NCBI GenBank assembly: GCA_965200485.1 | Contig: CBDAUD010000001.1 | Coordinates: forward strand, 875,597 to 939,596 | Length of the DNA: 64,000 nt | From: a bacterium | Lineage (GTDB): Bacteria; JAAXHH01 | Reading direction: 5' to 3' | Shown here: piece by piece, positions 1-21,493 of the stretch | How positions within the stretch are numbered: the stretch's first letter is position 1 | Layout: every line of letters starts with the position of its first letter | Translations under genes and position numbers: made by a program | The notes under the pieces: model-generated | The model's database searches: none | What the model saw: only the letters and a program-made list of their open reading frames with translations | Told to the model about the DNA's origin: nothing

Positions 1-1773
1 GTAAAGGGCCACCGTGAATCCCATCCCGGCGCCGATGTATTCCCATTTTATGAGTTGCCCGATCACATCCGACCCACCCGGCAGAGTCGACTTGATCCAA
101 ATCGTTTCCATAGTTGCCTGTAACGGCCACATTTTTTCCACGAATGGATAGGCCGCCGACGGAATGGGCGCCAGTTTCCAGATCAGCGCATAGAAAAGGA
201 AACTGAAGACGATAAGCAGCAGCAGGCTCAATATATACAACTTGACGAGGCTTGGGAATCGCGTTCGCGTGAGTTCCAGTTGCCGGAACGTAGCGACCAC
301 GCCGCTGTGATCGAAAAGAGGAACCGGGGCGAACCAGATCGCCACACCCCTATAGCCCGAAAGGTAGAAGGAGCCCTCTCTGGCGTAGGGGAAGGAAGAT
401 CCGTAAGGCGATCCCGTCAAACCGATCATGCGTGCGCCGATGTAGGAGAAGAAGGGGGTCCACAGGAATCCGAATAGCACGGAGATCCATACCGGAAACG
501 TCGGTTCCAGGTAGTAGACCAGGAGAATGAAGCACAAGGTGGAAATTGCCCAGAGCGCGATAGGAACAGGCAATCTGAAATCGCCCCGGTCCCGCGGCGG
601 CCGGCGGGGACTCCGGTCTCCGGACGCCGCGCCGGTATCCCTCCACAGCAACCGTACGAAGGTCGCGAGGCCGATCAGACCGATGACCAGCGAGGTGCCG
701 ATGGACGAGAAACTCAGCCAGAAGTCGATGGTGTTGTTGATGGATGTGGGAATGGTGCTCATCCCCGGCGACCAACTGTGCAGCAGGCCGAAATGGTACA
801 AGACAGGGTTGGCGATGAAGGTGAGCACGAAAGAACTGATGAAGGTGCCCACCACGATCCAGAACGGAAGGACGAATCCCACCAGGAGCGTGGCCAGGTC
901 CGTGCCAATTCCGATCGGCGTGGCGGGTATCACATCCCGGAAACGCGGCGTGAAGTCCGCAAAGGGTATGGGAAAGACCTCTACGCCCTTGGTCAGCACC
1001 ACGCCGGAAACGGTCGGCACGACAACGTACAGTATACCCCAGCCCAGGCCGATCATGGCGCCGACGGTGAACAGGCGCCACCGCCAGGTCTCCTCTCCCG
1101 CCGAAGACTCCGCAAGCGCGGTCGCACCCGCCGCCTGCACGGGCGCCAGGGGGAAGGGCAGCCGTTCGGTATCAGCCGTAATGCGGAACAGAACGTATCC
1201 CAGGGAAAGAGCGTTGACGAGGCCGAGTACAGAGACAAGGACCGCCAGGAGCACAGGTTGAAGCCATTCCATGGAGAACAATGTGCGCGTGATCAGCGAT
1301 TCGGACCCGCGGGGCGGTGAAACCCACTGGGGCAGAAGCTGTGCCAGGCCGTCCGCCTGGGGCGACTGGATCAGATACTGAAACCAGATCATCTTGGCAA
1401 ACGGTGCGCCGTGGACCGAAGATCCGGCAGCCATCCCGCTGGCGCCCAGTCCCGTCGCCGCCAGCCCGGCGGCCAGCCAGTACAGGATGATGGCCTCCTG
1501 GGGCTTCAGCTTGATGAACAGCCGCTTTCCTATCTCGATGAACATGATGATGGTGACCCACTCCGCGGCGCCGACGAAGCTCTTGCCAGTCACCAGTTCC
1601 AGGTAGATCGCCCCGGGAAGCATGACCAGGCCGACGAAGAAGGCGGCCCAGACGGTTCTTCTGCTGAACCCGTCCTCGTAGGGCAGGTCATCCGGCACGA
1701 TCTGCCATGGTTCCTCCCGCACCGGAGAACCCGTCTCTTCGTTTTCCCGTTCAGGTCTGGTTTGTTCGTTCAT
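1..1773 (-). CDS. Large polytopic membrane protein, uncharacterised family (paralog A; C-terminus runs off the window edge)
   Basis: Minus-strand frame is open from ATG at 1773-1771 (MNEQTRPERENEETG...) down to position 1 with no stop. The translation is strongly hydrophobic and multi-TM. It shares motif order with the 7524-9518 and 16517-18538 proteins (e.g. RITADTERLPFPLAPVQ vs RRQWVEHEKLVFPIMQIP, followed by analogous W/F-rich segments). It is not in the supplied ORF track because it has no in-window stop. It was translated by eye, so local frame errors are possible. Confidence 0.6.
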   Translation of the reverse strand, partial: MNEQTRPERENEETGSPVREEPWQIVPDDLPYEDGFSRRTVWAAFFVGLVMLPGAIYLELVTGKSFVGAAEWVTIIMFIEIGKRLFIKLKPQEAIILYWLAAGLAATGLGASGMAAGSSVHGAPFAKMIWFQYLIQSPQADGLAQLLPQWVSPPRGSESLITRTLFSMEWLQPVLLAVLVSVLGLVNALSLGYVLFRITADTERLPFPLAPVQAAGATALAESSAGEETWRWRLFTVGAMIGLGWGILYVVVPTVSGVVLTKGVEVFPIPFADFTPRFRDVIPATPIGIGTDLATLLVGFVLPFWIVVGTFISSFVLTFIANPVLYHFGLLHSWSPGMSTIPTSINNTIDFWLSFSSIGTSLVIGLIGLATFVRLLWRDTGAASGDRSPRRPPRDRGDFRLPVPIALWAISTLCFILLVYYLEPTFPVWISVLFGFLWTPFFSYIGARMIGLTGSPYGSSFPYAREGSFYLSGYRGVAIWFAPVPLFDHSGVVATFRQLELTRTRFPSLVKLYILSLLLLIVFSFLFYALIWKLAPIPSAAYPFVEKMWPLQATMETIWIKSTLPGGSDVIGQLIKWEYIGAGMGFTVALY

Positions 1774-1776
1774 CCG

Positions 1777-2934
1777 TTACTCGATTCTCAGGTAGTTCCC
1801 CGCTTTTTCCCATTCCGGCCGTGTCAGGCCGTTCAGGTCCCAAACCACCTCTCCCGCCCGGACGGTCAATAGGCCCCTCAGTCGCTGGGTGCCGCGCATG
1901 CGCGCATGTCCCGAATCGACAAATCCGAATTCCCCGTATTCCAGCTCCAATACGGCGATGTCCGCCTCGGCGCCGATGCTCAGCGTACCGAGTTCGGGAC
2001 GCCGAATGACCCGGGCGGGATTGCGTGTGGAACGCATCACCACGTCCTCCAGCGTCATCCCCATGTTGAGGCACTTCGACATGGTCGCGTTCATGCTCGC
2101 GTTCGGAAGCAGGGCGCTGTCCTTGTGGAGGTCCGTGCTGATCGTATCGGGCAGAAAGCCCTGGGCGATGGCCGGTATGGCGATGCGGAACCAGAAACTG
2201 CCGCCGCCATGGCCGAGGTCGAACAGAATGCCCTTGTCCCGAGCTTCGCGGACGTAGGCGTTTACGCTGCCGTTTTCGTCCAGCAGGGGGATGTGCTGTG
2301 CGTAAACGTGCGTATGTATGTCTCCGGGGTTTAGTTTTTTCAACAGCAGATCCCGGTAGCTTCGGGTCGGTTTCGGTGCGAAATCGATCATGGCGATCGT
2401 ACCGCTGCGTCGGGCGGCCTCCACGGCGCCGTCTACCGCCTCCCAGCCGGGTCCACCGAAGTGGGCTGTCTTGGAGCCGACGACGTGTGCGGGGTATTTG
2501 CTGATCATGGCTGCGCAGAGCGCGGGGTCCATCTCTGAAACGTCCTGTTCCACGGCGCCCTCCATGCCGGCGCCCACGATATTGATCAGCGCCAGGACCC
2601 GGGTCTTCGATTCGGCGATGATCGTGTCCTTGAAATGTTCGAACTTCTTCCAGCCGGCGCCCCCCGTATCCAGCACAGTGGTCACCCCGTTAGGCAGCAC
2701 GTGGGCATCGGGGAACAACCAACCCCGGTAGCCGCCGTAGGCGTGCATATGTATGTCAATCAGTCCCGGCGTAACGTAATGACCATGGACGCGGGCCACC
2801 TTCTGGCCGTGTTCCGCCGGGATATCGTGTTTCATCGCCGCGATCACGCCGTCTTTGACGGCGACGTCCCGGTTTCCGTTAATGCCGTTTTCCGGATCGA
2901 TGACGTGGCCGCCCTTGATGATCAGATCGTACAT
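1777..2934 (-). CDS. Amidohydrolase-superfamily metal-dependent hydrolase (D-aminoacylase/dihydroorotase-like)
   Basis: 385-aa ORF. The N-terminal MYDLIIKGGHVIDPENG...GLIDIHMHAY motif is typical of amidohydrolase TIM-barrel metal-binding HxH. It lies 3 nt upstream of paralog A and 19 nt downstream of the 1522-aa gene. Confidence 0.8.
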   Translation of the reverse strand: MYDLIIKGGHVIDPENGINGNRDVAVKDGVIAAMKHDIPAEHGQKVARVHGHYVTPGLIDIHMHAYGGYRGWLFPDAHVLPNGVTTVLDTGGAGWKKFEHFKDTIIAESKTRVLALINIVGAGMEGAVEQDVSEMDPALCAAMISKYPAHVVGSKTAHFGGPGWEAVDGAVEAARRSGTIAMIDFAPKPTRSYRDLLLKKLNPGDIHTHVYAQHIPLLDENGSVNAYVREARDKGILFDLGHGGGSFWFRIAIPAIAQGFLPDTISTDLHKDSALLPNASMNATMSKCLNMGMTLEDVVMRSTRNPARVIRRPELGTLSIGAEADIAVLELEYGEFGFVDSGHARMRGTQRLRGLLTVRAGEVVWDLNGLTRPEWEKAGNYLRIE

Positions 2935-2953
2935 CGCTGCTCCTCTCCTTCGA

Positions 2954-5900
2954 TTAAAGGGGCGTTTGACGATCGAACTGCTCGATATTCCGGTATCGTG
3001 CCTTTATGGGCTCGGAGATCGTCCGCCATACAAGAAACCGCTTCCTCAATACGGTAAAAAATCGGCGGTTGATCGTCTGCCACTGGGCACGGTCTCCGCT
3101 TCGGCGATGGATCACGATGAAGATGCGATAGAGCCGTTCCTCCGGGATCGGCTCCAGTTGCAAACGAACTTCCTGGCTGATGGCCAGATCATACGGCGCC
3201 AGCCAGACGCTGGCCGTCAGGTGATACGTGTCGAAGGCATCCCCTGGCATCACGTCAAGCATGGCGCCCTCGGTGACGAAGTCTTCCGCTGAACTGTCTT
3301 CATGCGTCCGTAGTACATGGGTCAGATAACCGGCCAGCGGCAACGCCTCGGGGACCGTCACCGTGAAGGGAAACTCGAATTGCCAGTCGTCCTCCTCGGG
3401 CGGCGGGGGCGCCCAGCGCCTGGTGACGTCCTCCACCGTCATGTCGGCCGCCTTTTTCGCCGGGTACAGGGTAGACAGGAAGACGACGACCATTACGACC
3501 ACCGTGGCGTAGACGGTCGACAGCGAGGAGTAGTTGAGCGATAGACCGCCCAGTGCTCCCCACTGCAACAGTCCCATGGTGATGATCTGCCCGAAGAGAT
3601 ACCCGAACACGGCCCCAAGCGTCGCGAATACGGCCGCTTCGGCCATGAATAGCGCGGCGACATGATTCGGCGCCAGACCAACGGCGCTGTACACACCGAT
3701 TTCACGGAACCGCTCGAATACGGCACCCATCATCGTATTCAGCACCAGGAAGGCCGCAATGAGCACCGGAATGATCAGATTGGCCAGGCCGGACACCGAG
3801 GTCGCCCCGAGGGAACTGTATACCTTTACTTCGTCGTCCATGCCAACGAAGACGGCCAGGAGGACGCGCGACATGAAGGATTCTACGGTTTCGCGAAGCT
3901 GATCGCCGTCGGCGAATCCCGCGATGGCCACGGACCGCGTAGACCCGTTCAGGTCGAGCGTCTGGCGATAGGGCACCACCAGCACGTTGCGGGACGGAAG
4001 ATGCTCCGATGCCTGGATCGTCGACATGAACACCTCCACGTCCATCTCGGTCAGGCTGCGGGTCATGGAGAAGCTGGCGGGCATGATGCTCTCATCGTCC
4101 ACGTCCCGGTATGCATCGATCCGGTCGGAATCGAGCAGTCCGATCACGGTGTATTCGCCACCGAGGATCTCGACAGCCGTCGTACCTACGTCGTCCGCCG
4201 TCACATTGAGTCGCTCGGCGAGCTCCGTGGGCAACAGGCAGACGGCCCTTTCGCCCCGGTTGAACCATCTGCCGCCCGGCAACAGATAGCGATCCAGGCC
4301 GGTGATGGACGGCTCGTCGGCATGCAGTCCCAGGATAGATTGCACGGTGGTGGCCGTTCCCTTGCCCGGTACCCGCAGGTCGATGTACGGGCTGCTCAGA
4401 TCTTCGGGCTCGTACCACGAACGGGGCACGATCGTAGCGTGTTCCCGGAAGGCGTTCTCCACGTAGGGCAGGAAGGACGTGGGAAGGGCGTGCCACGACA
4501 GGTTGCGCATGAGGACCCCGTTGTACGACGGGGTGTTTTCGCGGTCCAGGGTATAGAATTGAATGCCGGTCTTGAAGGAAGTAAAGGAAAGCACGGTAAA
4601 GGTCAGGAGGGTCAGGGTTACGGCGGTCAGCGCCGTACGCATCTTCCGCTTTCGCAAGTTGGATATGCCCAGGGATATGGCCACCGCCGTGGCGCTCAGC
4701 CGGCCTATGTCGGCTTCGTGCAGGCCGGTCTCGGGACGGGTCAGGTTCTTCATTTCGGTGTCGAACCGAGAAACGATCATGGTGATGATGATCAGTGCCA
4801 GCGCCAGGATGATAAAGGCGAGAAAGACCATGTACGGTGTCAGGCTCAGCTGAAAGGCGGGGTGCACGTTCTGCAGCAGCATGAAAACCGCCGCAAAGAT
4901 CACGCCGACCGCGAGCAGTTGTTTCCGAATGTCCGTGAATCCGAAGAAAAGGCGTTCGAGGAAGAAGCAGAAGGGGATCAGCAGCATGAAATAGAACACG
5001 ATGCCGTCCACCGTGTCGTCCGCGGCATAGCGGACATCGGGATAGGCTCGCGCCTCGTAGCCCCAGGCCTCTCTCGACCGTGCCGCGAAGGCGTCGTAAC
5101 GACGATTCTCCAACGCTTCGCGCGCCGCACGCAATGCCCGCGTGCTCTCCTCGTGCAATTCGGCTGCCCGGGCGTTGGTCACCCCGTGGTCTTCGAGTTG
5201 CATCAACCGGGCCCGGTTGAGCGACCACAAGTCCAGGGCGCTCTGGTAGAACGGATACAGAATCAGTCCCCGGTCCGGCGTGAATCCACGACCCTGTGCC
5301 CGTGCCATGATCTCGTTGGTGACTTGCTCCGGTGGAAGATCGAGCCACGATTCCGGTGTGTTGGTCAGCAGATACTTGACGCCCAGCGGCCCCGCGCTCA
5401 TGAACACTTTGACCGGGTCCTCGGGCTTGGTGAAGACCACCGCGGCGTTGGTCATCCAGTTGCCGAAGAAACTCTGATCTTCGACGAAAGCCGCGCCGTA
5501 CTTGCGCAGCGGACTGTTGTCCCGGCCGAGCACAGTCAGGTTGTCGAGCGCGGTGAAGACGCCGGGGTCCACGATATCGAAGAGGTTGATCTCTTTGCAG
5601 GGAAAGAGGACCTGTATGGTATTGTTCACCTTGGACGAGTTCGGTACCGCGAGCGGGAAGGTTGCGTCGCCCTCTTCACCCAGATCGGGCGCATACACGA
5701 TCCTGCCTTCGGGATCAAGGCCGTAGCTACGTACTTCCGTTGGTCCTTTGGGCTCACGGACCATGGAGAACCGAAATTGCCCCATTGAATCGGCCTGGGT
5801 AACAATGAAGCCCCGCACCCCGCCGTGGCTCTGATAGCCGGGTTCGTAGACGACCAAGGCATCGGCGACCGGTGTGTTGGGCTTGAAGAAGTCGACGGTA

Positions 5901-7522
5901 CGGTCGAATTCCAGGACCCGGCCTTCAATGTCCCGGCCTTCATCCTTGAGCCGGATGGACTCGTCCACCTCGAAGGCCTCGGGGTCCGAAAGCATGGCCG
6001 GAAGCAGTGTGCCGAGGGTCCTGATCTGACGGACCAGGTTGGGGAAATCGACCTCCTCGATCCGGTCCAGAGGCGTGTCTATGCGCAGCCTGTTGTCGTT
6101 CGCCGTGGCGAAGGTCATCCCGTGCAGTCCGGCGAGCGTGACCATCTCGTGGTCGAAAGCAGGCCGCGCGGGCATATAGCTTTCCTGGGACCTGAGCGAA
6201 GGCGTCAGCGTGTTGAGATAGCGTGTGCGCCTCGGTTCATCATGGTACACGCCGGCCTTGCGGGCATAGTTCACGTAACGGTCCGCATAGGGTTCGTACA
6301 GGATCTTCAGGTTCGGGCCGAAGAAGATGAAATCACCATAGCTGAACAGACCGACCTGGTCCATCCTGCTGGTCAGGTCAAGACCCAGGAACAACGTGAA
6401 GGGGATGCGGTCTTCTTCGGGAATCCGATCCAGGAAAAACTCGTCCGCCCGAAAATGCCGGTCCAGGAAGTCGTTTATGCCCTGCAGCCCGTGGAAATGG
6501 GCGGATGTGGCCAGGAACAGCACGGTGTAGCCGGGTGGATGGGCCCTGAGCACCTCCATCAGTTCTAGCAGAGCGGCGATGCCCCCCGCGCTCTCTGCGC
6601 CCGGGGCCTGCCCCGGCACCACTGACATGGCGTCGTAGAACGCCGACAGCACGACGATCCGATCCTTCCACTTCTCCGTGCCGTCACCGCCGGGATGCGG
6701 CTCATCCCGGCCCGGAATCCATCCCATGACGTTCCAGGTATCGGACCGTTCCCAGCTCATGCGCCCCTTGATCGTCACCTGGACCTCTCCGGTCTGCGCC
6801 GCCTGGAGCACTTCTTCCGCATGGGGATCCGGTATCCAGAACCGTGGAACGTCGGCAGGTACATCCAGGATTTTGCGCTGGGCCTGATTATTGGTTATCG
6901 CGCCCGGACCGCTGTCGTAGAACAGCACGGCCCGCGCACCCAGCATGCGCGCGTTGAGGTACTGGTCGCGTCCGTCGAAATCGACCAGAACGATACTACC
7001 CTCGATGTCTTTGCCGTTGAAGTCCTGGAATGCCCCCCGCCGGCCGTAATGCAGCGGCCCCGTAATCCCTTCGGGAAAGGAATTCAACCGCACGAGATTC
7101 GGCCAGAACTGATACACCGGAAACTCGGTTTCCACCGTGTCGTGTACGGTCAGCGTGAAGCCATGGTCTATCGGAGAGGAAACGGTGAAGGTGTCTATGG
7201 CAACCCGGGAAAGGCCTCCGGCCCGGAATGCGTCGACCACGTACTCCATGGCCGCCCGGTTTCCCGGATAACCGACTACGCGCGACGGATTTTCGCTCAT
7301 TGCCCGAACGTGAGACTCGACGCGTTCCCGGGTAACGATTTCGGAAACCTCTTCCAGGGACACCGGCGCCTCTTCGAGCGGCCTGGGCACCACGTCTCCG
7401 GGCAGCGAGACGACTTTCAGGATCACGTGCTCTGTCACCCAGGCCGGTCCTGCCAAGGCCACGGCGAGAAACAGCAGGACGCCGATGGCTAGAAAGAAGT
7501 ATCCCGATATGCGCGAATACAC
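2954..7522 (-). CDS. Fusion protein: N-terminal TM anchor + PA domain + M28-family Zn aminopeptidase, central TM region, C-terminal MacB/FtsX-type permease domain
   Basis: 1522-aa ORF. The PA-like segment is GSIVLVDFDGRDQYLNARMLGARAVLFYDS. The M28-like segment is ...IVVLSAFYDAMSVVPGQAPGAESAGGIAALLELMEVLRAH. The FtsX signature is VSGLANLIIPVLIAAFLVLNTMMGAVFERFREIGVYSAVGLAPNHVAALFMAEA, which is MacB-like (TERTREIG...). A large extracytoplasmic loop sits between TM1 (MRTALTAVTLTLLTF) and the FtsX helices. The start codon sits 1 nt after the stop of the upstream paralog-B gene. Confidence 0.85.
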   Translation of the reverse strand: MYSRISGYFFLAIGVLLFLAVALAGPAWVTEHVILKVVSLPGDVVPRPLEEAPVSLEEVSEIVTRERVESHVRAMSENPSRVVGYPGNRAAMEYVVDAFRAGGLSRVAIDTFTVSSPIDHGFTLTVHDTVETEFPVYQFWPNLVRLNSFPEGITGPLHYGRRGAFQDFNGKDIEGSIVLVDFDGRDQYLNARMLGARAVLFYDSGPGAITNNQAQRKILDVPADVPRFWIPDPHAEEVLQAAQTGEVQVTIKGRMSWERSDTWNVMGWIPGRDEPHPGGDGTEKWKDRIVVLSAFYDAMSVVPGQAPGAESAGGIAALLELMEVLRAHPPGYTVLFLATSAHFHGLQGINDFLDRHFRADEFFLDRIPEEDRIPFTLFLGLDLTSRMDQVGLFSYGDFIFFGPNLKILYEPYADRYVNYARKAGVYHDEPRRTRYLNTLTPSLRSQESYMPARPAFDHEMVTLAGLHGMTFATANDNRLRIDTPLDRIEEVDFPNLVRQIRTLGTLLPAMLSDPEAFEVDESIRLKDEGRDIEGRVLEFDRTVDFFKPNTPVADALVVYEPGYQSHGGVRGFIVTQADSMGQFRFSMVREPKGPTEVRSYGLDPEGRIVYAPDLGEEGDATFPLAVPNSSKVNNTIQVLFPCKEINLFDIVDPGVFTALDNLTVLGRDNSPLRKYGAAFVEDQSFFGNWMTNAAVVFTKPEDPVKVFMSAGPLGVKYLLTNTPESWLDLPPEQVTNEIMARAQGRGFTPDRGLILYPFYQSALDLWSLNRARLMQLEDHGVTNARAAELHEESTRALRAAREALENRRYDAFAARSREAWGYEARAYPDVRYAADDTVDGIVFYFMLLIPFCFFLERLFFGFTDIRKQLLAVGVIFAAVFMLLQNVHPAFQLSLTPYMVFLAFIILALALIIITMIVSRFDTEMKNLTRPETGLHEADIGRLSATAVAISLGISNLRKRKMRTALTAVTLTLLTFTVLSFTSFKTGIQFYTLDRENTPSYNGVLMRNLSWHALPTSFLPYVENAFREHATIVPRSWYEPEDLSSPYIDLRVPGKGTATTVQSILGLHADEPSITGLDRYLLPGGRWFNRGERAVCLLPTELAERLNVTADDVGTTAVEILGGEYTVIGLLDSDRIDAYRDVDDESIMPASFSMTRSLTEMDVEVFMSTIQASEHLPSRNVLVVPYRQTLDLNGSTRSVAIAGFADGDQLRETVESFMSRVLLAVFVGMDDEVKVYSSLGATSVSGLANLIIPVLIAAFLVLNTMMGAVFERFREIGVYSAVGLAPNHVAALFMAEAAVFATLGAVFGYLFGQIITMGLLQWGALGGLSLNYSSLSTVYATVVVMVVVFLSTLYPAKKAADMTVEDVTRRWAPPPPEEDDWQFEFPFTVTVPEALPLAGYLTHVLRTHEDSSAEDFVTEGAMLDVMPGDAFDTYHLTASVWLAPYDLAISQEVRLQLEPIPEERLYRIFIVIHRRSGDRAQWQTINRRFFTVLRKRFLVWRTISEPIKARYRNIEQFDRQTPL

Positions 7523-7523
7523 G

Positions 7524-9518
7524 CTAGTCTATCCCGTAGATATGATGTCCTGCATGCGGAAACCAGATGTAGTCGACAAGCATGGAGATGACCACGCCGG
7601 TAGCGACGCCGAAAATCAAGCCCAGGAAGAAGGGTTGGCCTTTTCGGTAAAGCTCGATCCCGCCCACCCACATCATGATGCGTTTGATGACCCAGCACAC
7701 GAACATGGACGAGACAATCGCCCGGGCGGGCCAGGAGTATGAAAGGAAAAAACCGAGGGGATGCAGCGGCCAGCCCGGCAACCGGGCCCTGAGCATCATG
7801 AGCAGGAACATGAGCGACCCGCCTACAACAAAGAACATCAGCCGTGCCGTGTCCGGTCCGAAGGGATCCCGGATCTTGGCGAGCGTTTCGTTGTAGGGGA
7901 TGGTCGAACCGATCCGGCCGAACCACCATCCGTTGGTAAACTGACGCGTGCCCTGGTCAAACCCCATGTAGATCGTCCAGACCAGCGAAATCACCACGCC
8001 GACCACCGCGGCGGAAAGGAGTGACCAGCCCAGACCCCGGTGCCAGCGCGTACCGATCTCAGACAGTTTGGCCACCTGCATGAAAGCGGGCATGAAGGTG
8101 GACTTGATCTCGCTGATCGGTCCGTAGGTCTGCGCCATGGCCGTCATGGTGGACATGGAAAGGTTGGCCGAACCGACCGAATAGAAAACGAGAACCTGGG
8201 CGATCATGGGCGAACGCACATAGGGCAGCCCGGCCTCGGCGATGATGCGGGAGACGCCGATATAGATGATGAAGACGCCTGCGAGGAGGAATACGGCAAT
8301 GGGTATGTCCATGCCCAGCTGATTCAGCCAGACCACCCCGTAGACGAACCCCCCGAGAAATCCGAATACCGCGACCCGGTAGGGGAGCATCTCTTCCGCA
8401 TCGTCCAGGTCTGATCTGCGGCCGAACGCCTGGGAGACCACGGCCCGGATATGAAACCTCGCCCGCCAGAGTCCCCACCCCACGAATACGATGAAGGCGC
8501 CCATGTTCTGCCAGTCCAGCATGGGATGGCTCGAGGTGTAATTGTCTCTTCCTGGAATGTCGTACCCGATCCGGTTGGCGATGCCCACCTGGATGATCCC
8601 GAGCATGTAGAACACCCAGAATCCGGCCAGCACGTCCAGATTGACGAAATAGGAAATGCCGAGAATGGCCGGGCGGAAGTTGATTTCCAGCGGGGGAAAT
8701 CCGTCGCCGAAGACGATGGGCGGCGCCGAACCGAAATAGGGAAACTGGGGCACGACCGGCGTGAAGTATCCGATCATGTTGTACATCATCACGCAGAACG
8801 GGATGGAAAAGCCGATCCAGAACCGCTTCTCCGTAAGAAAGGCGGGGACGCGACCCGGACTTTCCATGCCCCGGGTAAAGGCGAGGGGAATCTGCATTAT
8901 GGGGAAGACGAGTTTCTCGTGTTCGACCCACTGGCGCCTGAGGATGACCACAAGACACAGTGCCATGAAGATGAGCGGGATGATGAGGGTGAGCCACCAG
9001 AACAGCGGAATGCCCCACACAGTCCAGGGAATGGAGGCGCCGGGGGGGAGACCGTCTACAAACCACGTGAGGGCATTGCCCTGGTTCGTGACGGTCGCCC
9101 AGGGTTGCAGGTACGGGTAGAAATACTCGGCCCACTGGTTCTCGGGTGTGGCCAACAGGTAGGGGGCCATCAGGGTGGAGATGAACGGCGCGCCCATGCC
9201 GTTGGTCGTAAGGCCCGAAGCCGCCATGCCCATGGCCAGGGGAATGACAAACTCATGGGGCGTAAGCGCCCAGTCGGCTTTCCATTTTGCGAGCCCGACG
9301 TTGAAAATGATCAGATAGGCGAAGGCCAGAAAGAGCGCGCCGATGTGGAGATGATCCGCGCCCAGCTGAGACGAGGCCATGGTGTACTGGAAATAAGGCA
9401 CGATCAGCGAGATCAGGACGACGCTTGCCATCCCGAGGAGAATGGATCGCGGCGTAATGATCCGGGTCGCCGACGCCGGGACGGCGGAGGTGTTCACATT
9501 TTGCTGTACTGAGGCCAT
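7524..9518 (-). CDS. Large polytopic membrane protein, uncharacterised family (paralog B)
   Basis: 664-aa ORF, about 14+ predicted TM helices. It is a clear paralog of 16517-18538, with shared motifs FVDGLPPGASIPWTVWGIPLFWW / FYEGLPSGGTIPWRDWIIPMGWW, RRQWVEHEKLVFP / RKQWIERERLTFP, ARLPGWPLHPLGF / HWWPLHPIGW, and C-terminal VDYIWFPHAGHHIYGID / VDVIWFPNSGHIVETW. I cannot assign a named family from memory. Confidence 0.8.
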   Translation of the reverse strand: MASVQQNVNTSAVPASATRIITPRSILLGMASVVLISLIVPYFQYTMASSQLGADHLHIGALFLAFAYLIIFNVGLAKWKADWALTPHEFVIPLAMGMAASGLTTNGMGAPFISTLMAPYLLATPENQWAEYFYPYLQPWATVTNQGNALTWFVDGLPPGASIPWTVWGIPLFWWLTLIIPLIFMALCLVVILRRQWVEHEKLVFPIMQIPLAFTRGMESPGRVPAFLTEKRFWIGFSIPFCVMMYNMIGYFTPVVPQFPYFGSAPPIVFGDGFPPLEINFRPAILGISYFVNLDVLAGFWVFYMLGIIQVGIANRIGYDIPGRDNYTSSHPMLDWQNMGAFIVFVGWGLWRARFHIRAVVSQAFGRRSDLDDAEEMLPYRVAVFGFLGGFVYGVVWLNQLGMDIPIAVFLLAGVFIIYIGVSRIIAEAGLPYVRSPMIAQVLVFYSVGSANLSMSTMTAMAQTYGPISEIKSTFMPAFMQVAKLSEIGTRWHRGLGWSLLSAAVVGVVISLVWTIYMGFDQGTRQFTNGWWFGRIGSTIPYNETLAKIRDPFGPDTARLMFFVVGGSLMFLLMMLRARLPGWPLHPLGFFLSYSWPARAIVSSMFVCWVIKRIMMWVGGIELYRKGQPFFLGLIFGVATGVVISMLVDYIWFPHAGHHIYGID

Positions 9519-9656
9519 GGAAGAGGCTGGGAACAGATCTCGCGATGTTCGGGCACTGGTTTAGACGAGCGAATGGGTTCAGAATATGTAAGGCGGTACA
9601 TGGGATAAGTCAAAGAAAAACAGCGTCGTCACAAATCCTCCGACAGCGTAGTTCCA

Positions 9657-12278
9657 ATGGTTTTAGTGATTGACACCCCAGTAGTTTACGGGGATATTCA
9701 TATCTTGGATGAGTCCGTTCCATACGAGGATTTCATAGTGAAGGCCGCAATCCGAGCAACCATAGAACACTTTCTGAACAGATACATCGCCTTCATCTGT
9801 CGCCATCCCGCGAAGATCGTCCTGGGTGCGTTGCTCTCGGCCCTGGTCTCTGTTCATTTCACCGCCGGTCTCCAGCTAAAGACGGACTTTGTCGAGCTCC
9901 TGCCCGAGGGCTACCGCAGTGTCGACGACATCCACCGGATCACGGAGCGCGTCGGTGGCATCGGCAACCTGACCGTCGTCATCGAAACGGAAAACCTGGG
10001 CGCCGCCCAGCGATTCGCCGACGACCTTGCCGGCCGGATCCGTTCCGATCTCCCGGAAGGATACGTCCGTTATGTCGAGTACCGGGTGGACGACGAGAAG
10101 CGATTCTATGAAGACCATAAGTACCTCTACGCAGATCTGGAGGACCTGGAAGATATTCAAAGCCGGCTGAGCCGGCAGATCCTGAAGAAGAAACTGGAGC
10201 AGAACCCCCTCTTCGTTTCCGAGGAAGACCTCGGTCTTGAAGTGGAAGACGAACCGTTTACCATAAGCGATCTGGAGGAGAAGTACGAGAACAAGGCGGC
10301 GGAGCAGCTTGACAAGTGGGTAGACGGTTACTTTACGGGACGCGACGACCAGGGGCAGTTTCTCGTCATGATCCTGAAACCCTATGGTTCGTCGACCGGC
10401 GTATCCTTTTCGCGGGATCTGTGCGAACGGGTCATGGCACTCGTGGAATCCCTGGACCCCACTTCCTACCACCCGTCACTTAAGGTGGGTCTCACCGGGA
10501 AATACCGCCTGATCCTCGACCAGTACGCGTCCGTCCAGCGGGAGATCCTTTCTTCCGCGGCCTTTACACTCATCCTGGTCGCCCTGGTCATATTCCTCTA
10601 TTTCCGGACGATCGTCCCGGTCATCAACATTACACTGGTCGTGGTCGTCGGCATACTCTGGACGTTCTGCATCACCTTTTTCCAGATCGGCTATCTGAAC
10701 ATGCAGACGGCCTTTCTGGGCGCCATCATCGTGGGGAACGGCATCAACTACGGCCTGATTCTGATGGCGCGTTACAAGGAAGAGCGCCTGCGTGGTGAAA
10801 ATGCCTTGGACGGCGTGCGAATCGCCTTTCGGAACACCCTTGCGGCGACCATCACCTCCGCGTTGTCGACCGGGCTTGCCTATGGCACCCTCATGATCAC
10901 CGATTTTCGGGGTTTTAGCCATTTTGGTTTCATCGGCGGCCTGGGCATGCTGCTGTGTTGGGTTTCGACATTTTCCATCCTTCCGGCGTTGCTGATGCTA
11001 TGGGACCGTACCGGATTCGGCCGGAAAACCTGGACTCGGAAGGCCTCGCGGGGCAGGGCGCTCACCCGTCTCGCCGACCTGGTGCAGAACGCACCGCGCG
11101 CCGTGGTCGGCACCAGTGTCTCCCTTGTCCTGCTGGGTGCCTTACTGCTGGCGTGGTGGCTTCCGAATTCCTTCGAGTACGATTTCTCGAAACTGCGAAA
11201 CGAGCCGCGGGGAGACACCTACGAACGCATCCTCAACCACCGCGTCAACGCCTTGTTCGGCGTGTCGCAGTCGCCCGCCGTCATTCTGGCGGACCGCCTG
11301 GATCAGGTGCCTGACATCCGTCGTTCCGTCCTGGACAAGAAAGAAGCGGAAAAGAGCGTCCCGAACCCGACTATCGACCGGGTGCGGACCATTTTCGACC
11401 TGCTGCCGGAGGACCAGGAGGACAAACTCGACATGCTCTGGGACATCGAGTACATGCTCGATGCGAATCCGCCCGACGAACTCGGCATCTCACCGGACCA
11501 ACTCGCCAGGATCAACGAATTCCGGGACAACCTGAGCCAGGAGGAAATCACTCTGGATGATCTCCCCCAGGCGCTTAAACGTCCCTTCGAGGAGCGGGAC
11601 GGAACGGCTGGCCGGCTGGTCTACGTCTATCCGAGGCCGGACGCCGGACTCTGGAACGGCAGGAACCTGATCCGGTTCGCGGAAGTCGTCCGCTCCAATC
11701 GTCTGCCAAACGACGAAGTCATCTATTCCTCCGGGGAGGCCGTGGTATTCGCCGACATGCTGAAAGCCGTGGACCGTGACGGCCCAATCGCCACGGTGGC
11801 CTGTTTCCTGGGCGTGATCACGCTCCTCGTACTGGCTTTCCGAAGCATGCACGCATCGATCGTCATCCTGGCCTCTCTGCTGGGCGGCATGCTGGTCATG
11901 GGCGGGGTCATCGCCGTCTTCGACATCAAGGTGAACTTCTTCAACTTTATCGTAATACCTACGACGCTTGGGATCGGTGTGGACTACAGTGTGAATCTGT
12001 ACCAACGCTACCGCCTTGACGGCCGTGGTTCTATCCATAATATGGTACAGCACACAGGCGCGGCCCTGGTCATGTGTTCCTCCACCACACTGATCGGGTA
12101 TACCTCGCTGATGCTGACGTCCAACCGGGGCCTGCATTCCTTCGGGATCATGGCCAACGTGGGCGAGATCGCCACGCTGGCGACAGCCCTGGTCGCGCTG
12201 CCCGCCTATCTGCTCATTATGGAAAAGCGGATGGGGAACAAGGCGCCGGTATCGCCTGAACCGGTCCGCGCCGCGTGA
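9657..12278 (+). CDS. MMPL/RND-superfamily membrane transporter (two 6-TM bundles with large extracytoplasmic domains)
   Basis: 873-aa ORF with two hydrophobic blocks (ILSSAAFTLILVALVIFLYF...GNGINYGLILMARYKEE and VACFLGVITLLVLAFRS...TLGIGVDYSVNLYQRY) typical of the MMPL/SSD architecture. The first 27 codons look non-native. An in-frame GTG at 9738 (VKAAIRATIEHFLNRY...) is a plausible alternative start. Confidence 0.8.
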   Translation: MVLVIDTPVVYGDIHILDESVPYEDFIVKAAIRATIEHFLNRYIAFICRHPAKIVLGALLSALVSVHFTAGLQLKTDFVELLPEGYRSVDDIHRITERVGGIGNLTVVIETENLGAAQRFADDLAGRIRSDLPEGYVRYVEYRVDDEKRFYEDHKYLYADLEDLEDIQSRLSRQILKKKLEQNPLFVSEEDLGLEVEDEPFTISDLEEKYENKAAEQLDKWVDGYFTGRDDQGQFLVMILKPYGSSTGVSFSRDLCERVMALVESLDPTSYHPSLKVGLTGKYRLILDQYASVQREILSSAAFTLILVALVIFLYFRTIVPVINITLVVVVGILWTFCITFFQIGYLNMQTAFLGAIIVGNGINYGLILMARYKEERLRGENALDGVRIAFRNTLAATITSALSTGLAYGTLMITDFRGFSHFGFIGGLGMLLCWVSTFSILPALLMLWDRTGFGRKTWTRKASRGRALTRLADLVQNAPRAVVGTSVSLVLLGALLLAWWLPNSFEYDFSKLRNEPRGDTYERILNHRVNALFGVSQSPAVILADRLDQVPDIRRSVLDKKEAEKSVPNPTIDRVRTIFDLLPEDQEDKLDMLWDIEYMLDANPPDELGISPDQLARINEFRDNLSQEEITLDDLPQALKRPFEERDGTAGRLVYVYPRPDAGLWNGRNLIRFAEVVRSNRLPNDEVIYSSGEAVVFADMLKAVDRDGPIATVACFLGVITLLVLAFRSMHASIVILASLLGGMLVMGGVIAVFDIKVNFFNFIVIPTTLGIGVDYSVNLYQRYRLDGRGSIHNMVQHTGAALVMCSSTTLIGYTSLMLTSNRGLHSFGIMANVGEIATLATALVALPAYLLIMEKRMGNKAPVSPEPVRAA

Positions 12279-12332
12279 CAGCGCCTTCACGACAGTATCG
12301 TCCAGGTAACGGCGTCGAACAAGGCCGGTTAC

Positions 12333-14692: not shown

Positions 14693-14779
14693 CCGCATGA
14701 ACCGGACAGAATCGCTCCTCGCCCGGTCCGGAATACCTGTTTTGAAGAGACGGACAACCCGCAACCCGAGGTCATCGAG

Positions 14780-16516: not shown

Positions 16517-18538
16517 TTACCACGTCTCTACGATATGGCCCGAGTTGGGAAACCAGATTACATCGACGCCGTAGGAAAGCGCCACGCCCAGCACATAACC
16601 CACCAGCATCCCGATGAAGAACGGTTGTGCCTGGCGATAGAGTCTCGTGCCGCCAAGTTTCAGGATCACCGCCTTGATCAGCCAGACGATGAAGAGCGAC
16701 GTGGCGATCATCCCGATACCCCAGGTTTTCGCGACTGCCCAGCCGATGGGATGCAGCGGCCACCAGTGGAAGTTGTGGTGCGCCAGGATGAGCAGCCAGG
16801 CGACGAACGCCCCGATCCCGAGGCCGGCGTACTCGCCGCCGGTCAACTGGGTCTGATTGTTGATCCACGTCGTCAGCGTTTCGTATCCCGCTTTCGCGTT
16901 GCCGAAGGCGTCGGCGAATCCGTCCGCACCGGTGGTCGTGTAACCCAGGAAGATGGTGTACACCACCGAAATGGCACCGGCGACGAGAAGCGCCGATACG
17001 ATGACGGGAAAGATGCCGCGTCGGGCGCCGCCGACCTCGTCGCCCACCTTGTTTACGTGGGCAATGGCGCACATGCCCAGCGTGCGCCAGTTCCGCGAAA
17101 AGGTCTGCGAAAGGGTCAACATGGTGAGGTCCGCCCGGTGCAGGTTTGCCGAACCAAAGGAAAAAACGGTGAAATCATGGGCATTGTAGGGCAGGTCCAG
17201 ATTGATCAGCCCCGCTTCCGCCACCACGCGGGTAACGCCCAGAAAGAGCAGCAGGCTGGTGGCCAGGAGTGTTGCCGCGGCGGCGACGGACATGCCCATG
17301 CCGATCAGAAAGAAAAACATGTATGCGATGCCTATCACAACCCCCCCCATGGCGGTCCTGTACGAGAAGAACTCCCCGGAATCGTCAATGTCCCGCCCCC
17401 GGCCGACAGCCTTTCTTACGACGTCGCAGAGGTGGCGGCGCGCCATCCACAGTCCGAAGAGGGTGTACATGAAAAAGCCGCCCAGGTGCTGGGCCGTTAC
17501 GATTTCGGTCGTCTTTGGAATGCCGAATCGGCTCATGATACCGATCTGGATCGTGGCCAGCAGGAAGAACACCCAGATACTGAACAGGATGTTCAGCTCG
17601 GTAAAGAACCCGACACCGATAAAAGCGAAATTGATCTTGAACTGAATCGGCGGAAAGGATTCGGCCAGGGTGATCGGTATGCGGTAGTCCCCGCCCAGTT
17701 TGATGGGGGGCACGACGTCCCAGTACGAGACGATGTTCCAGACGATGATAAAGAGCGGGATGGAAAATCCGTACCAGAATACCGCGGACCGGGCGACCCG
17801 GGGCAACGCGGAACCGCTTTCGTCTTCTTCGATGAGCAGCAGCGGCACGCGCGCCAGCGGAAAGGTCAGTCGCTCCCGTTCGATCCACTGCTTGCGCAGG
17901 ATCACCATGAGCGATGCGCTGGCGAAGAACAGGGCTACAAAGAACGATCCCCACCAGCCCATGGGAATGATCCAGTCTCGCCAGGGTATGGTGCCGCCCG
18001 ACGGCAGCCCCTCGTAGAACCAGTGTACCGCGTTCCGTTCGTCCGGGACGATCAGCCAGGCAGGCAGGTATTCGAAGAACAGTTCCACGTACCGGTTCTC
18101 GGAGTTGGCGTAGTAGTGGGGAATGGAGGGTATGGCAACCCAGTAGGTGGTAAAGGCCCATCCTGGAATGGCCGATGCCGTGAACACGATGAAGAAGATG
18201 ATGATCAGTTCCTGCGGGGTGAAGGCCCGCGCGGGCGCGAATCGCTTCAGCAGACCGTTCACGACGAAAACGACCAGCATGAAGGGGAAGAGCGCCGCCA
18301 TGGGCAGATGAGTAATGGAAAGGTAGGAGGAATGGGCTTCGAAGGCGGAATGAACGACCCACCAGGCCATCGACGCAGACAGGACGAGTCCGAGACCCAC
18401 CGCCCGAAGGGTCATGCCCGAAGCGAGGCCCCGGGCTCCGGCGGAAGCGCGTGTTTCGGTAGAATGGGAATCCGGCTCCCCGGATGGCGGGGAAGACCGC
18501 GGTCGGACACGCATGGATTTAGCGTTTGAGGGGGACAA
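16517..18538 (-). CDS. Large polytopic membrane protein, uncharacterised family (paralog C)
   Basis: 673-aa ORF. It is multi-TM and shares the conserved motifs of 7524-9518 (see that entry). The first about 40 residues are Ser/Pro/Arg-rich, so the real start may be the internal Met at about 18415 (MTLRAVGLGLVL...). Confidence 0.8.
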   Translation of the reverse strand: MSPSNAKSMRVRPRSSPPSGEPDSHSTETRASAGARGLASGMTLRAVGLGLVLSASMAWWVVHSAFEAHSSYLSITHLPMAALFPFMLVVFVVNGLLKRFAPARAFTPQELIIIFFIVFTASAIPGWAFTTYWVAIPSIPHYYANSENRYVELFFEYLPAWLIVPDERNAVHWFYEGLPSGGTIPWRDWIIPMGWWGSFFVALFFASASLMVILRKQWIERERLTFPLARVPLLLIEEDESGSALPRVARSAVFWYGFSIPLFIIVWNIVSYWDVVPPIKLGGDYRIPITLAESFPPIQFKINFAFIGVGFFTELNILFSIWVFFLLATIQIGIMSRFGIPKTTEIVTAQHLGGFFMYTLFGLWMARRHLCDVVRKAVGRGRDIDDSGEFFSYRTAMGGVVIGIAYMFFFLIGMGMSVAAAATLLATSLLLFLGVTRVVAEAGLINLDLPYNAHDFTVFSFGSANLHRADLTMLTLSQTFSRNWRTLGMCAIAHVNKVGDEVGGARRGIFPVIVSALLVAGAISVVYTIFLGYTTTGADGFADAFGNAKAGYETLTTWINNQTQLTGGEYAGLGIGAFVAWLLILAHHNFHWWPLHPIGWAVAKTWGIGMIATSLFIVWLIKAVILKLGGTRLYRQAQPFFIGMLVGYVLGVALSYGVDVIWFPNSGHIVETW

Positions 18539-18726
18539 AAGACACTGGCCTCACGGGCCGTTCCCGGACGTTCCGGGATGCGCACAATGTATTTTCCGGA
18601 CGGGGTCCCATCAAGGACTAAAACGATGGCCGGCTGGCGGCTGTTTCCCTTGACATCGGCCGCTTCCGCCCATAGAATGGTCGATATTTCCTGCCCTTGC
18701 TCTCCCCCGTTCAGAGGACCTTCTTC

Positions 18727-19701: not shown

Positions 19702-19779
19702 GGTCTGCCTCCGCGTGCGGAGCCCCGGGGCGGCGCTGGCGGTGAATCGAAAGCCTTTAAGCGAATACATGACGCTAAT

Positions 19780-20589: not shown

Positions 20590-20708
20590 CACCATCGGCC
20601 GACCGTCGCCCGCTCGCGCCCCGCATTGCTGTGCAACATTTTCATCATCGCCAGCGTCTTAACCATAACGCGGATCGTTTGAGGCAGGTTAACCATGACA
20701 CGCCGGGG

Positions 20709-21482: not shown

Positions 21483-21493
21483 ACCATCGCGAC

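What the first reader, a model, noticed from the sequence alone, without database searches (positions are those of the whole stretch)
1..9518. Tightly coupled four-gene operon: two paralogs of an unassigned ~660-aa membrane family, a peptidase-permease fusion and an amidohydrolase
On the minus strand the order is paralog B (7524-9518), the 1522-aa PA/M28-FtsX fusion (2954-7522, start 1 nt after the B stop), an amidohydrolase (1777-2934, 19-nt gap) and paralog A (1-1773, 3-nt gap). Such spacing implies co-translation and a shared function. The enzymatic content (exopeptidase + amidohydrolase) plus a MacB/FtsX-type mechanotransmission permease and two large polytopic proteins suggests one module. 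It would process and move peptide-like or cell-wall-derived substrates across the inner membrane. I could not map the paralog family to a named transporter family from memory, so this may be a poorly described system.
Basis: partly seen in the sequence, partly recalled or inferred. Interest (0 to 1): 0.78.

Follow-up and report, generated by a model that had tools for sequence, protein, structure and literature searches.

The report
Pseudo-peptidase FtsX permease with OPT-fold transporters
A large membrane protein that joins a peptidase-like outer domain (without the usual catalytic residues) to a MacB/FtsX-type permease is almost always encoded beside, and sometimes fused to, distant relatives of oligopeptide/metal-chelate (OPT/YSL) transporters, which defines a widespread and unstudied membrane module in Gemmatimonadota, Latescibacterota and allied phyla.

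Summary
The four minus-strand genes exist at the stated coordinates and spacings. Three points in the finding need correcting. (1) The "paralogs" are not close: B (and a third copy, C) is Pfam DUF6785+DUF6784, while A has no Pfam match. The two families align only at profile level (hhalign 95%, about 19% identity). A confident model of B matches only the barley Yellow Stripe 1 transporter, so both are divergent OPT/YSL-fold transporters. (2) The M28 domain lacks the canonical zinc ligands and the catalytic Glu in about 200 relatives and carries a different conserved set of residues, so exopeptidase activity is doubtful. (3) The amidohydrolase is present only in the window's own clade. What is conserved is the fusion plus an A-type or B-type gene, found in 66 of 67 informative loci from several phyla. 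Natural fusion–DUF6785 single-chain proteins also exist in independent assemblies. The C-terminal half of the fusion is a genuine MacB/LolC-type unit, yet no ABC ATPase lies in the window. Only 4 of 84 related loci carry a dedicated one. My best reading is a substrate-capture and uptake module for peptide-like compounds. Family assignments are solid; function is inferred. No literature was found. I rate it a new variant of known kinds, of moderate to high interest.

The parts
7524..9518 (-). B: 664-aa polytopic protein, Pfam DUF6785 (res 22-523) + DUF6784 (res 561-652); OPT/YSL-fold transporter
   Evidence: ORF. Pfam match. AlphaFold model has pLDDT 88 and pTM 0.89. Foldseek top hit is HvYS1 7wsr_A, E 6.7e-9, TM 0.64/0.70 over 674 columns; the next hit has E 0.04.
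2954..7522 (-). Fusion protein (1522 aa, 8 predicted TMs): ectodomain + 3-TM bundle + MacB-type unit + cytoplasmic C-terminal domain
   Evidence: ORF. Pfam finds PA, Peptidase_M28 and FtsX. TM segments are at residues 5-27, 837-860, 868-890, 897-918, 963-985, 1243-1265, 1288-1316 and 1330-1355.
5963..7357 (-). PA + M28-like ectodomain (res ~56-520) with a non-canonical site (F295, D297, E310, H342, F343, D382, D482)
   Evidence: The family profile matches aminopeptidase 2ek8 (E 5e-20) and YwaD, and also nicalin and transferrin receptor. Ligand positions were scored over 219 relatives.
5015..5962 (-). Beta-rich ectodomain region plus long helical stalk (res 521-836)
4769..5014 (-). Three extra transmembrane helices (res 837-918) between the ectodomain and the FtsX unit
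   Evidence: Hydropathy; helices in the model. hhalign finds no similarity to FtsX TM2-4.
3440..4714 (-). MacB/LolC/FtsX-type unit (res ~937-1361): elbow helix, TM1, periplasmic core domain, TM2-4 with an invariant ER..EIG coupling-helix motif
2957..3430 (-). Conserved cytoplasmic C-terminal domain (res 1365-1522), the hallmark of the family; probably a helix-grip (Bet v 1/START/Aha1-like) fold
1777..2934 (-). Cytoplasmic amidohydrolase/deacetylase-family metallohydrolase (cog3964 type); a clade-specific addition
   Evidence: NCBIfam NF006689 scores 371.3 bits against a cut-off of 371. PDB relatives are 8je0, 2ogj and 2ics. The HxH motif (DIHMHAY) is present and there is no signal peptide. An adjacent ortholog occurs only in the window clade.
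1..1773 (-). A: first 591 codons of a 680-aa polytopic protein; a separate, very conserved OPT-superfamily sub-family with no Pfam model
   Evidence: Sequence, full length. It is 48-55% identical to the proteins next to fusions in other phyla. hhalign against the B family gives 95% probability. One family member passes Pfam OPT at 28.7 bits against a gathering score of 25.8.
9519..9656 (.). 138-nt divergent intergenic region between B and the MMPL gene; presumed promoter region of the operon
   Evidence: Sequence. No sigma-70-like consensus for the minus strand was found here, so the role is inferred from position only.
16517..18538 (-). C: a further DUF6785+DUF6784 protein (up to 673 aa), 32% identical to B; not part of the operon but conserved at this position in the clade
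   Evidence: Pfam; identity. A partial B-type gene lies about 8.8 kb upstream of the fusion in L007, L009-L013 and L015.

Best explanation
This is one copy of a widespread inner-membrane module. Its constant core is (i) an 8-TM protein and (ii) one or two OPT/YSL-fold secondary transporters, A-type and/or B-type (DUF6785/6784).

The 8-TM protein displays a PA/M28-like ectodomain of the receptor type, with a remodelled site that is not the canonical di-zinc site. It also has beta-sandwich domains and a helical stalk on the outside, a MacB/LolC-type 4-TM unit with a periplasmic core domain in the membrane, and a conserved helix-grip-like domain in the cytoplasm.

The most likely mechanism is as follows. 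The ectodomain binds, and possibly trims by non-canonical chemistry, a peptide-like compound outside the inner membrane. It hands that compound to the attached OPT-fold permeases, which import it using the proton gradient, as characterised OPT/YSL members do.

In the window's clade the imported compound would then be processed by a cytoplasmic cog3964 amidohydrolase, a 2-hydroxyacid dehydrogenase and an Ldh_2-type oxidoreductase encoded in the same gene string.

Shown: the gene order, the folds and family placements, the loss of canonical M28 residues, the conserved synteny, the natural fusions, and the absence of an ATPase gene nearby. Inferred: physical complex formation, direction of transport, nature of the substrate, and whether the MacB-type unit is driven by an ATPase encoded elsewhere.
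For: Synteny. Of 67 related loci with at least 2.5 kb on both sides, 66 have an A-type or B-type gene within 10 kb and 32 have both. In 56 loci it lies on the same strand within 3 kb, in the orders FUS-A, B-FUS, B-FUS-A, FUS-B-A and B-FUS-B. This holds in Gemmatimonadota, Latescibacterota, Planctomycetota, Omnitrophota and others.

Rosetta-stone fusions. P0462 (2120 aa) is the fusion plus an acidic linker plus DUF6785/6784. It is seen in several independent assemblies, including NCBI MEE2729158.1, and in a second cluster, P0432. The join runs from the cytoplasmic C-terminal domain to the N-terminus of B.

Fold of B. HvYS1 is the only significant PDB match. HvYS1 is a proton-coupled, elevator-type importer (PMC9691689). 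A relates to B by hhalign, and the A-family member P0236 passes Pfam OPT.

Fusion protein. The MacB-type unit is confirmed by sequence and fold. The ectodomain has conserved non-canonical residues, which argues for a functional pocket and against simple decay.

Catabolic context in the window clade. The order is amidohydrolase, A, 2-Hacid_dh, Ldh_2, all on one strand.
Against: No experiment exists for any member, and no paper mentions DUF6785/6784. Substrate and direction of transport rest on analogy with distant OPT/YSL relatives (13% identity, TM 0.64-0.70).

Known MacB-type proteins do periplasmic work powered by an ABC ATPase. None is encoded in the window, and only 4 of 84 loci have a dedicated one. 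The role of that half is therefore unexplained by the uptake model.

The catalytic status of the M28-like domain is unknown. Genes beyond the core differ between lineages, so context gives little help on the substrate. The inter-domain arrangement in the fusion model is unreliable (pTM 0.38).
Confidence: 0.45

Rival explanations
1. Cell-envelope or peptidoglycan module. Like FtsEX, the MacB-type unit controls or positions a wall-directed ectodomain, here a pseudo-peptidase acting as a scaffold or regulator. The OPT-fold proteins take up the released muropeptide fragments for recycling, and the amidohydrolase acts on them in the cytoplasm.
Against: LysM was seen in only one of the variants examined; other giant variants carry Big_5 and not wall-binding domains. 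No peptidoglycan hydrolase, division or mur genes recur next to the fusion. Genomes carry two or three copies of the system (L010 with L017; L008 with L084), which is unusual for a division or wall machine. No ATPase lies nearby.
Confidence: 0.2
2. Export or secretion device. The OPT-fold proteins move a product outward across the inner membrane. The MacB-type unit with its ectodomain then processes or expels it from the periplasm, as PvdRT-OpmQ or MacAB-TolC act on periplasmic substrates.
For: All characterised MacB-type systems act on substrates already in or at the periplasm (established knowledge; the structural relatives are). In one group of loci an outer-membrane-barrel-like protein, a SurA-like protein and a lipoprotein precede the fusion (clusters c11, c3 and c6). 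These labels come from reading the sequences only; Pfam finds nothing.
Against: Characterised OPT/YSL members are importers (PMC9691689). No membrane-fusion protein or TolC-like gene recurs in the loci. No biosynthetic genes for an exported product are nearby. The window clade has catabolic enzymes downstream.
Confidence: 0.12
3. Metal-chelate (metallophore) uptake. The YSL-like permeases import a metal-chelator complex that is captured by a transferrin-receptor-like ectodomain.
For: The only solved relative of B is the Fe(III)-phytosiderophore transporter HvYS1. The ectodomain profile also matches transferrin receptor and nicalin, which are non-catalytic PA/M28-like proteins.
Against: No metallophore biosynthesis, TonB-dependent receptor or metal-regulator genes recur in the loci. 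The structural match is at fold level only (13% identity). The transferrin-receptor match is weak (E about 1e-4, PA region only).
Confidence: 0.08
4. Coincidental neighbours. The fusion, the OPT-like proteins and the amidohydrolase have unrelated functions and merely sit together.
For: The amidohydrolase is indeed not conserved with the others. A- and B-type genes also occur away from fusions, for example C in this window.
Against: 66 of 67 loci keep an A/B gene near the fusion across phyla and despite rearranged order. Single-chain fusion-B proteins exist in independent assemblies.
Confidence: 0.05

Closest known systems
MacB / LolCDE / FtsEX / HrtBA / YtrEF (type VII ABC, mechanotransmission permeases)
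   Different: There is no fused or adjacent ABC ATPase in the window or in about 95% of related loci. The unit is preceded in the same chain by an N-terminal TM, an ectodomain of about 810 aa and three further TMs, and followed by a conserved cytoplasmic domain of about 155 aa. It is partnered with secondary transporters, which is not described for any of these systems.
BceB / YbbP / ADOP-type single-chain double FtsX permeases
   Same: A single long chain with more than four TMs and a large extracytoplasmic domain. The 1 TM + ectodomain + 3 TM topology is repeated twice. There are weak matches to the NCBIfam ADOP model and to the YbbP and BceB structures. ADOP permeases are also 'orphans' without an adjacent ATPase (my own knowledge of TIGR03434).
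   Different: The first 1+3 TM set shows no detectable similarity to FtsX (hhalign), and only one Pfam FtsX domain is present. The ectodomain is PA/M28-like.
OPT/YSL transporters (Pfam PF03169; barley Yellow Stripe 1, PDB 7wsr/7wst)
   Same: B has the same fold over its full length (TM-score 0.64-0.70), a similar size, and a beta-hairpin where HvYS1 has its dimerising sheet. One A-family member passes the Pfam OPT threshold, and NCBI records name A-type proteins 'peptide transporter'.
   Different: Sequence similarity is essentially gone: 13% identity, and no hit with family profiles against PDB sequences even at E 10. B is filed by Pfam as DUF6785/6784 and A is in no family. The obligate pairing with a MacB-type protein is not known for OPT/YSL.
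Non-catalytic PA/M28-like proteins (transferrin receptor, nicalin) and PA-containing M28 aminopeptidases (2ek8, YwaD)
   Same: The same PA-inserted-in-M28 arrangement. The best sequence matches are 2ek8 (E 5e-20) and YwaD, with nicalin and transferrin receptor also matched. As in transferrin receptor and nicalin, the canonical zinc ligands are not kept.
   Different: The replaced positions are themselves conserved (E310 in 182, H342 in 207, D382 in 202 and D482 in 198 of 219 relatives). This is unlike simple decay, so a different metal or ligand site cannot be excluded. The domain is membrane-tethered to a bacterial permease.
cog3964 amidohydrolases (NF006689; Atu3266 2ogj, EF0837 2ics, 8je0 amidase)
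   Same: A full-length match at the NCBIfam cut-off, PDB relatives at E 1e-34 to 5e-45, and the HxH motif.
   Different: The substrate is unknown for this protein, and it is linked to the module only in one clade.

Membership tests
Pfam DUF6785 + DUF6784 | Match to both Pfam models above the gathering score | tested here: met
   B scores 365.8 and 80.9 bits, and C scores 380.6 and 81.0 bits. A matches neither model, so A is not a member.
OPT superfamily (Pfam PF03169 / OPT-YSL) | Match to the Pfam OPT model above the gathering score | tested here: not met
   Window A and B do not match, even at E<=10 for A. Only 1 of 18 A-family members passes (P0236, 28.7 vs 25.8 bits).
OPT superfamily (Pfam PF03169 / OPT-YSL) | OPT/YSL three-dimensional fold over the whole protein | tested here: met
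   The B model (pLDDT 88) against HvYS1 gives E 6.7e-9, probability 1.0 and TM 0.64/0.70; no other PDB fold comes near. A is linked to B by hhalign at 95%; A itself was not modelled.
OPT superfamily (Pfam PF03169 / OPT-YSL) | Proton-coupled import of oligopeptides or metal chelates | not testable with these tools
   This needs transport assays.
Peptidase family M28 (co-catalytic zinc aminopeptidases) | Match to the Pfam Peptidase_M28 model above the gathering score | tested here: met
   The score is 30.5 bits against 21.3. The family profile matches aminopeptidase 2ek8 at E 5e-20.
Peptidase family M28 (co-catalytic zinc aminopeptidases) | The five metal ligands (His, Asp, Glu, Asp, His) and the catalytic Glu of the EE pair | tested here: not met
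   Alignments to 2ek8 and YwaD and counts over 219 relatives give the following. His becomes Y/F (H in 37). The bridging Asp becomes E (182). The catalytic Glu becomes H (207). The Glu ligand becomes F (155). The Asp ligand is kept (202). The last His becomes D (198). Mapping D382 to the canonical Asp ligand rests on motif resemblance (GLDL vs NxDM) and is my inference.
MacB/FtsX type VII ABC permease | FtsX domain with four TMs and a periplasmic core domain between TM1 and TM2 | tested here: met
MacB/FtsX type VII ABC permease | A cognate ABC ATPase, fused or encoded alongside | tested here: not met
   No ABC ATPase ORF is present in the 64-kb window. Only 4 of 84 related loci have a small FtsX plus a LolD-type ATPase after FUS-A. 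An ATPase encoded elsewhere in the genome could not be checked.
cog3964 amidohydrolase/deacetylase (NCBIfam NF006689) | Full-length match at or above the curated cut-off, with the metal-binding HxH motif | tested here: met
   The score is 371.3 bits against a cut-off of 371, which is borderline, covering residues 1-366. The DIHMH motif is seen. PDB relatives are listed.

The most novel reading that the evidence does not exclude
The MacB-type unit may work here without any ABC ATPase. It would be coupled through its conserved cytoplasmic helix-grip domain, which in some lineages is covalently joined to the partner, to a proton-driven OPT-fold elevator transporter. Either proton-motive force would drive the movements of the ectodomain, or the ectodomain would gate the transporter. 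That would be a mechanotransmission machine powered or controlled by a secondary transporter.
Probability: 0.13. Interest if true: 0.85.

Novelty: new variant of a known kind. Interest (0 to 1): 0.62.

Why it matters
The family is large. At least 590 loci occur among GTDB species representatives, and the hallmark C-terminal domain matches 1245 clusters at 50% identity. Many genomes carry two or three copies, in phyla that are abundant in soils, sediments and sponges but barely cultured.

If the core proteins work together, this would be the first case of a MacB/FtsX-type protein partnered with a secondary transporter in place of, or in addition to, an ATPase. It would also give a function to two orphan families, DUF6785/6784 and the unnamed A-type family. 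It places those two families in the OPT superfamily, whose bacterial members are poorly known.

It also corrects a likely mis-annotation: 'M28 family peptidase' is used for a domain that lacks the M28 catalytic residues. That matters when peptidase inventories are used to infer protein degradation by these phyla.

Tried and rejected
- Literature searches for DUF6785, DUF6784, PF20581 and PF20580, and for FtsX + M28 + oligopeptide transporter + Gemmatimonadota, found no papers.
- Family profiles of A and B against PDB sequences gave no hit even at E 10. Only the fold comparison worked.
- Pfam and NCBIfam scans of full-length A found nothing. The basis of NCBI's name 'peptide transporter' could not be traced.
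- I tested whether the fusion is an internally duplicated FtsX protein, as the 1+3 / 1+3 TM topology suggests. hhalign of residues 825-925 against 1235-1365 found no similarity. The idea is unsupported by sequence, and the model's inter-domain packing is too uncertain to decide (pTM 0.38).
- A search of the window for an ABC ATPase or a second FtsX gene found none.
- An Rfam scan of the window for a riboswitch or leader upstream of B found none. The promoter/terminator scan was uninformative.
- The afdb50 fold library was not available, so annotated AlphaFold OPT relatives could not be used.
- Pfam on recurrent neighbours of the fusion in other lineages (the L004 302-aa, 263-aa and 871-aa proteins) was uninformative.
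- Several recurrent 'clusters' in my ORF clustering (c12, c20, c35, c46, c53) are antisense shadows of real genes and were disregarded.

Full report
**Observation**

The minus strand of window 1-9518 carries four tightly spaced ORFs:
- B: 7524-9518, 664 aa.
- The fusion: 2954-7522, 1522 aa, GTG start.
- The amidohydrolase: 1777-2934, 385 aa.
- A: 1-1773, running off the window edge.

The junctions are TAG-C-GTG (1 nt), 19 nt and 3 nt. No terminator-like site lies in a junction.

An exact-sequence look-up found the same contig in public assemblies. There A is 680 aa. It is followed after 124 nt by a 2-hydroxyacid dehydrogenase gene and then an Ldh_2-family gene on the same strand. The gene string therefore probably continues beyond the window. 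Upstream of B, a 138-nt gap separates it from a divergent MMPL gene.

Names attached to near-identical homologues place the organism in Gemmatimonadota.

**What the ~660-aa proteins are**

B matches Pfam DUF6785 (E 4e-109) and DUF6784 (E 9e-23). So does a third protein, C, at 16517-18538. C is 32% identical to B.

A matches nothing in Pfam or NCBIfam, even at E 10. BLASTP of A against B finds only a 53-residue patch. A and B are thus not paralogs in the ordinary sense.

Alignments of each family (A1, A2) do align to each other end to end with hhalign: probability 95.2%, E 2.6e-8, 562 columns, about 19% identity. They share, for example, an (E)R/K-L-x-F-P motif.

Evidence that both belong to the OPT superfamily:
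- A-type proteins are named 'peptide transporter' in NCBI records.
- One A-family member (P0236) passes the Pfam OPT threshold over nearly the whole model. The other 17 members tested do not.
- An AlphaFold model of B built on 30 homologues is confident (pLDDT 88, pTM 0.89).
- Against the PDB that model matches only the barley Yellow Stripe 1 transporter: E 6.7e-9, probability 1.0, TM-score 0.64/0.70 over 674 columns. The next hit has E 0.04.

HvYS1 is an OPT/YSL-family member described as a homodimeric, proton-coupled, elevator-type importer (PMC9691689). I conclude that A, B and C are highly divergent members of the OPT/YSL fold superfamily, in two sub-families that no one has characterised. 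No paper mentions the DUF names. Family profiles do not reach HvYS1 by sequence.

**What the fusion protein is**

Pfam finds PA, Peptidase_M28 and one FtsX domain. Hydropathy gives eight TM segments arranged as 1 TM, an ectodomain of about 810 aa, 3 TM, 1 TM, a periplasmic domain of about 260 aa, and 3 TM.

*The MacB-type half.* It is confirmed by several lines:
- PDB sequence matches to YtrF, MacB, LolC and LolF.
- The ER..EIG coupling-helix motif is invariant in the family.

The model has mean pLDDT 74 and pTM 0.38, so I use it at domain level only.

*The first 1+3 TM set.* It shows no sequence similarity to FtsX.

*The M28-like domain.* It aligns best with the PA-containing aminopeptidases 2ek8 and YwaD, but the catalytic apparatus is not there. 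Over 219 family members the positions read:
- First His ligand: Y 111, F 49, H 37.
- Bridging Asp: E 182, D 16.
- Catalytic Glu: H 207.
- Glu ligand: F 155.
- Asp ligand: D 202.
- Last His ligand: D 198.

The profile also matches nicalin and transferrin receptor, which are non-catalytic relatives. Because the replacements are themselves conserved, I read this as a remodelled binding site, or possibly a different metal site. I do not read it as either a working M28 aminopeptidase or a decayed one.

*The other domains.*
- The C-terminal domain is the hallmark of the family. It matches 1245 clusters at 50% identity, nearly always at the very end of proteins of 1450-3050 aa.

**Conservation of the neighbourhood**

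The fusion has more than 750 relatives in the protein database. At least 590 loci occur among GTDB species representatives. Most are Gemmatimonadota and Latescibacterota, with Zixibacteria, Planctomycetota, Omnitrophota and unclassified MAGs. Genomes often carry two or three copies.

I called ORFs in 86 fetched loci and scored them with HMMs of A, B and the fusion, and with the amidohydrolase.
- Of 67 loci with at least 2.5 kb on both sides, 66 have an A- or B-type gene within 10 kb. That is 47 with A, 51 with B and 32 with both.
- In 56 loci the gene is on the same strand within 3 kb. The orders are FUS-A (15), B-FUS (14), B-FUS-A (11, plus one further locus, L009, scored B-FUS-A-A), FUS-B-A (7), B-FUS-B (4), A-B-FUS (2) and FUS-B (2).
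- Most of the remaining loci have a divergently transcribed B gene just upstream.
- A-type proteins next to the fusion in a different lineage (L004) and in Planctomycetota (L005) are 55% and 48% identical to window A. That makes A more conserved than the fusion itself.
- A close amidohydrolase ortholog between the fusion and A occurs only in the window's clade: 10 of the 67 loci, with fusion identity of at least 66%. The same clade also keeps the two downstream dehydrogenase genes.

The strongest link is a Rosetta stone. P0462 (2120 aa) is the fusion, a short acidic linker, and DUF6785+DUF6784 in one chain. The same architecture occurs in several independent assemblies, including NCBI MEE2729158.1, and in a second 50%-identity cluster, P0432. 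The join is between the cytoplasmic C-terminal domain and the N-terminus of B.

**The missing ATPase**

No ABC ATPase is encoded in the 64-kb window. Among the 84 related loci analysed (the 86 fetched minus two duplicates), 14 have an ABC ATPase homologue within 10 kb:
- Eight belong to an unrelated BPD_transp-type importer about 8 kb away.
- Four (L026, L065, L068, L083) have a small four-TM FtsX permease and a LolD/MacB-type ATPase directly after FUS-A.

The family therefore can sit with a dedicated ATPase, but usually does not. Whether an ATPase is encoded elsewhere in these genomes could not be checked.

**Mechanism**

My best explanation (confidence about 0.45) is a capture-and-uptake module. 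The ectodomain binds, or non-canonically trims, a peptide-like compound. The attached OPT-fold permeases import it using the proton gradient. In this clade a cytoplasmic cog3964 amidohydrolase and two oxidoreductases then process it.

The folds, the synteny and the fusions are shown. Complex formation, direction of transport and substrate are inferred.

The rivals are:
- a peptidoglycan-directed, FtsEX-like module with muropeptide recycling, hinted at by a LysM-bearing variant;
- an export device;
- metal-chelate uptake, hinted at by the YS1 and transferrin-receptor resemblances;
- mere adjacency, which is now untenable for the core genes.

The most novel reading not excluded is that the MacB-type unit is coupled to the proton-driven OPT-fold transporter in place of an ATPase.

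**Verdict**

- It is wrong on three points: the paralogy is remote, the peptidase is non-canonical, and the amidohydrolase is a lineage-specific passenger.
- The parts belong to known superfamilies. The combination is undescribed, widespread and hard-wired by gene fusion in some lineages.
- I class it as a new variant of known kinds, with interest 0.62.

Noticed in passing
window 16517-18538 (-) and 18412-19770 (-): The third DUF6785/6784 gene (C) overlaps by about 127 nt the end of an upstream 452-aa same-strand ORF that has no Pfam match. C's true start is probably further downstream. Whether the 452-aa ORF is a real partner gene is unknown.
   Followed up: partly
window 9657-15901 (+): An MMPL/RND-type membrane protein (9657-12278) is followed by a complete bacillithiol biosynthesis set. 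The set is BshC (12333-13967), a PIG-L/BshB-type deacetylase (13964-14692) and a GT4/BshA-type glycosyltransferase (14780-15901). A rhodanese gene lies on the other strand at 15987-16433.
   Followed up: partly
window 20100-22769 (+): There are two adjacent proteins with DUF4097 'toastrack' domains (20100-21482, weak match; 21543-22769, strong match). A PLP-dependent (PALP) enzyme gene lies at 22820-23848 (-).
   Followed up: no
window 61003-62967 (-): This is a prolyl-oligopeptidase (S9) family protein with PD40/DPPIV-type N-terminal repeats, so a canonical peptidase exists elsewhere in the window.
   Followed up: no
L026:9505-11107, L065:18164-19682, L068:16381-17789, L083:16750-18138: In four divergent loci the FUS-A pair is followed directly by a small (~220 aa) four-TM FtsX permease without a large periplasmic domain, and then by a LolD/MacB-type ABC ATPase. 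This is the only place where a dedicated ATPase is seen.
   Followed up: partly
P0462, P0514, P0518, P0520, P0521 (2083-2120 aa); P0432: These are natural single-chain proteins joining the fusion to DUF6785/6784 through a short acidic linker. They come from Latescibacterota assemblies from several sources.
   Followed up: yes
P0376 (2451 aa); P0362, P0365, P0369 (2769-3053 aa): These giant family members carry extra N-terminal ectodomain modules. One has LysM plus NMB0315-like domain I. Three have Big_5 Ig-like domains. Planctomycetota versions (~1850 aa) have an insert of about 300 aa after the M28-like region.
   Followed up: partly
L004:950-9907 and the same region of L050-L062: In one Latescibacterota/Gemmatimonadota group the fusion is preceded by a conserved string. 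The string has three paralogous ~600-800-aa secreted proteins (CHU_C/FlgD_ig-type ends) and an 871-aa protein with a signal peptide and a C-terminal aromatic residue (outer-membrane-barrel-like). It also has a SurA-like protein and a 263-aa lipoprotein. None has an informative Pfam match.
   Followed up: partly
L002 (ENA ERZ25068762, contig labelled 2x): This second public copy of the same locus has the fusion, MMPL and BshC genes broken into several ORFs. These are most likely indel errors of a low-coverage assembly and not biology.
   Followed up: no
L001:13328-20185: Downstream of A, beyond the window, the contig carries 2-Hacid_dh, Ldh_2, DUF2911, RraA-like, creatininase-family, PhyH, cupin and methyltransferase genes. 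This looks like a region of small-molecule (N-compound) catabolism.
   Followed up: no
L010 and L017 (OZ241838.1); L008 and L084 (OZ241920.1); L049 and L050 (OY282352.1): Single chromosomes carry two or more divergent copies of the fusion (about 40-47% identical to each other), each with its own arrangement of A/B genes.
   Followed up: partly
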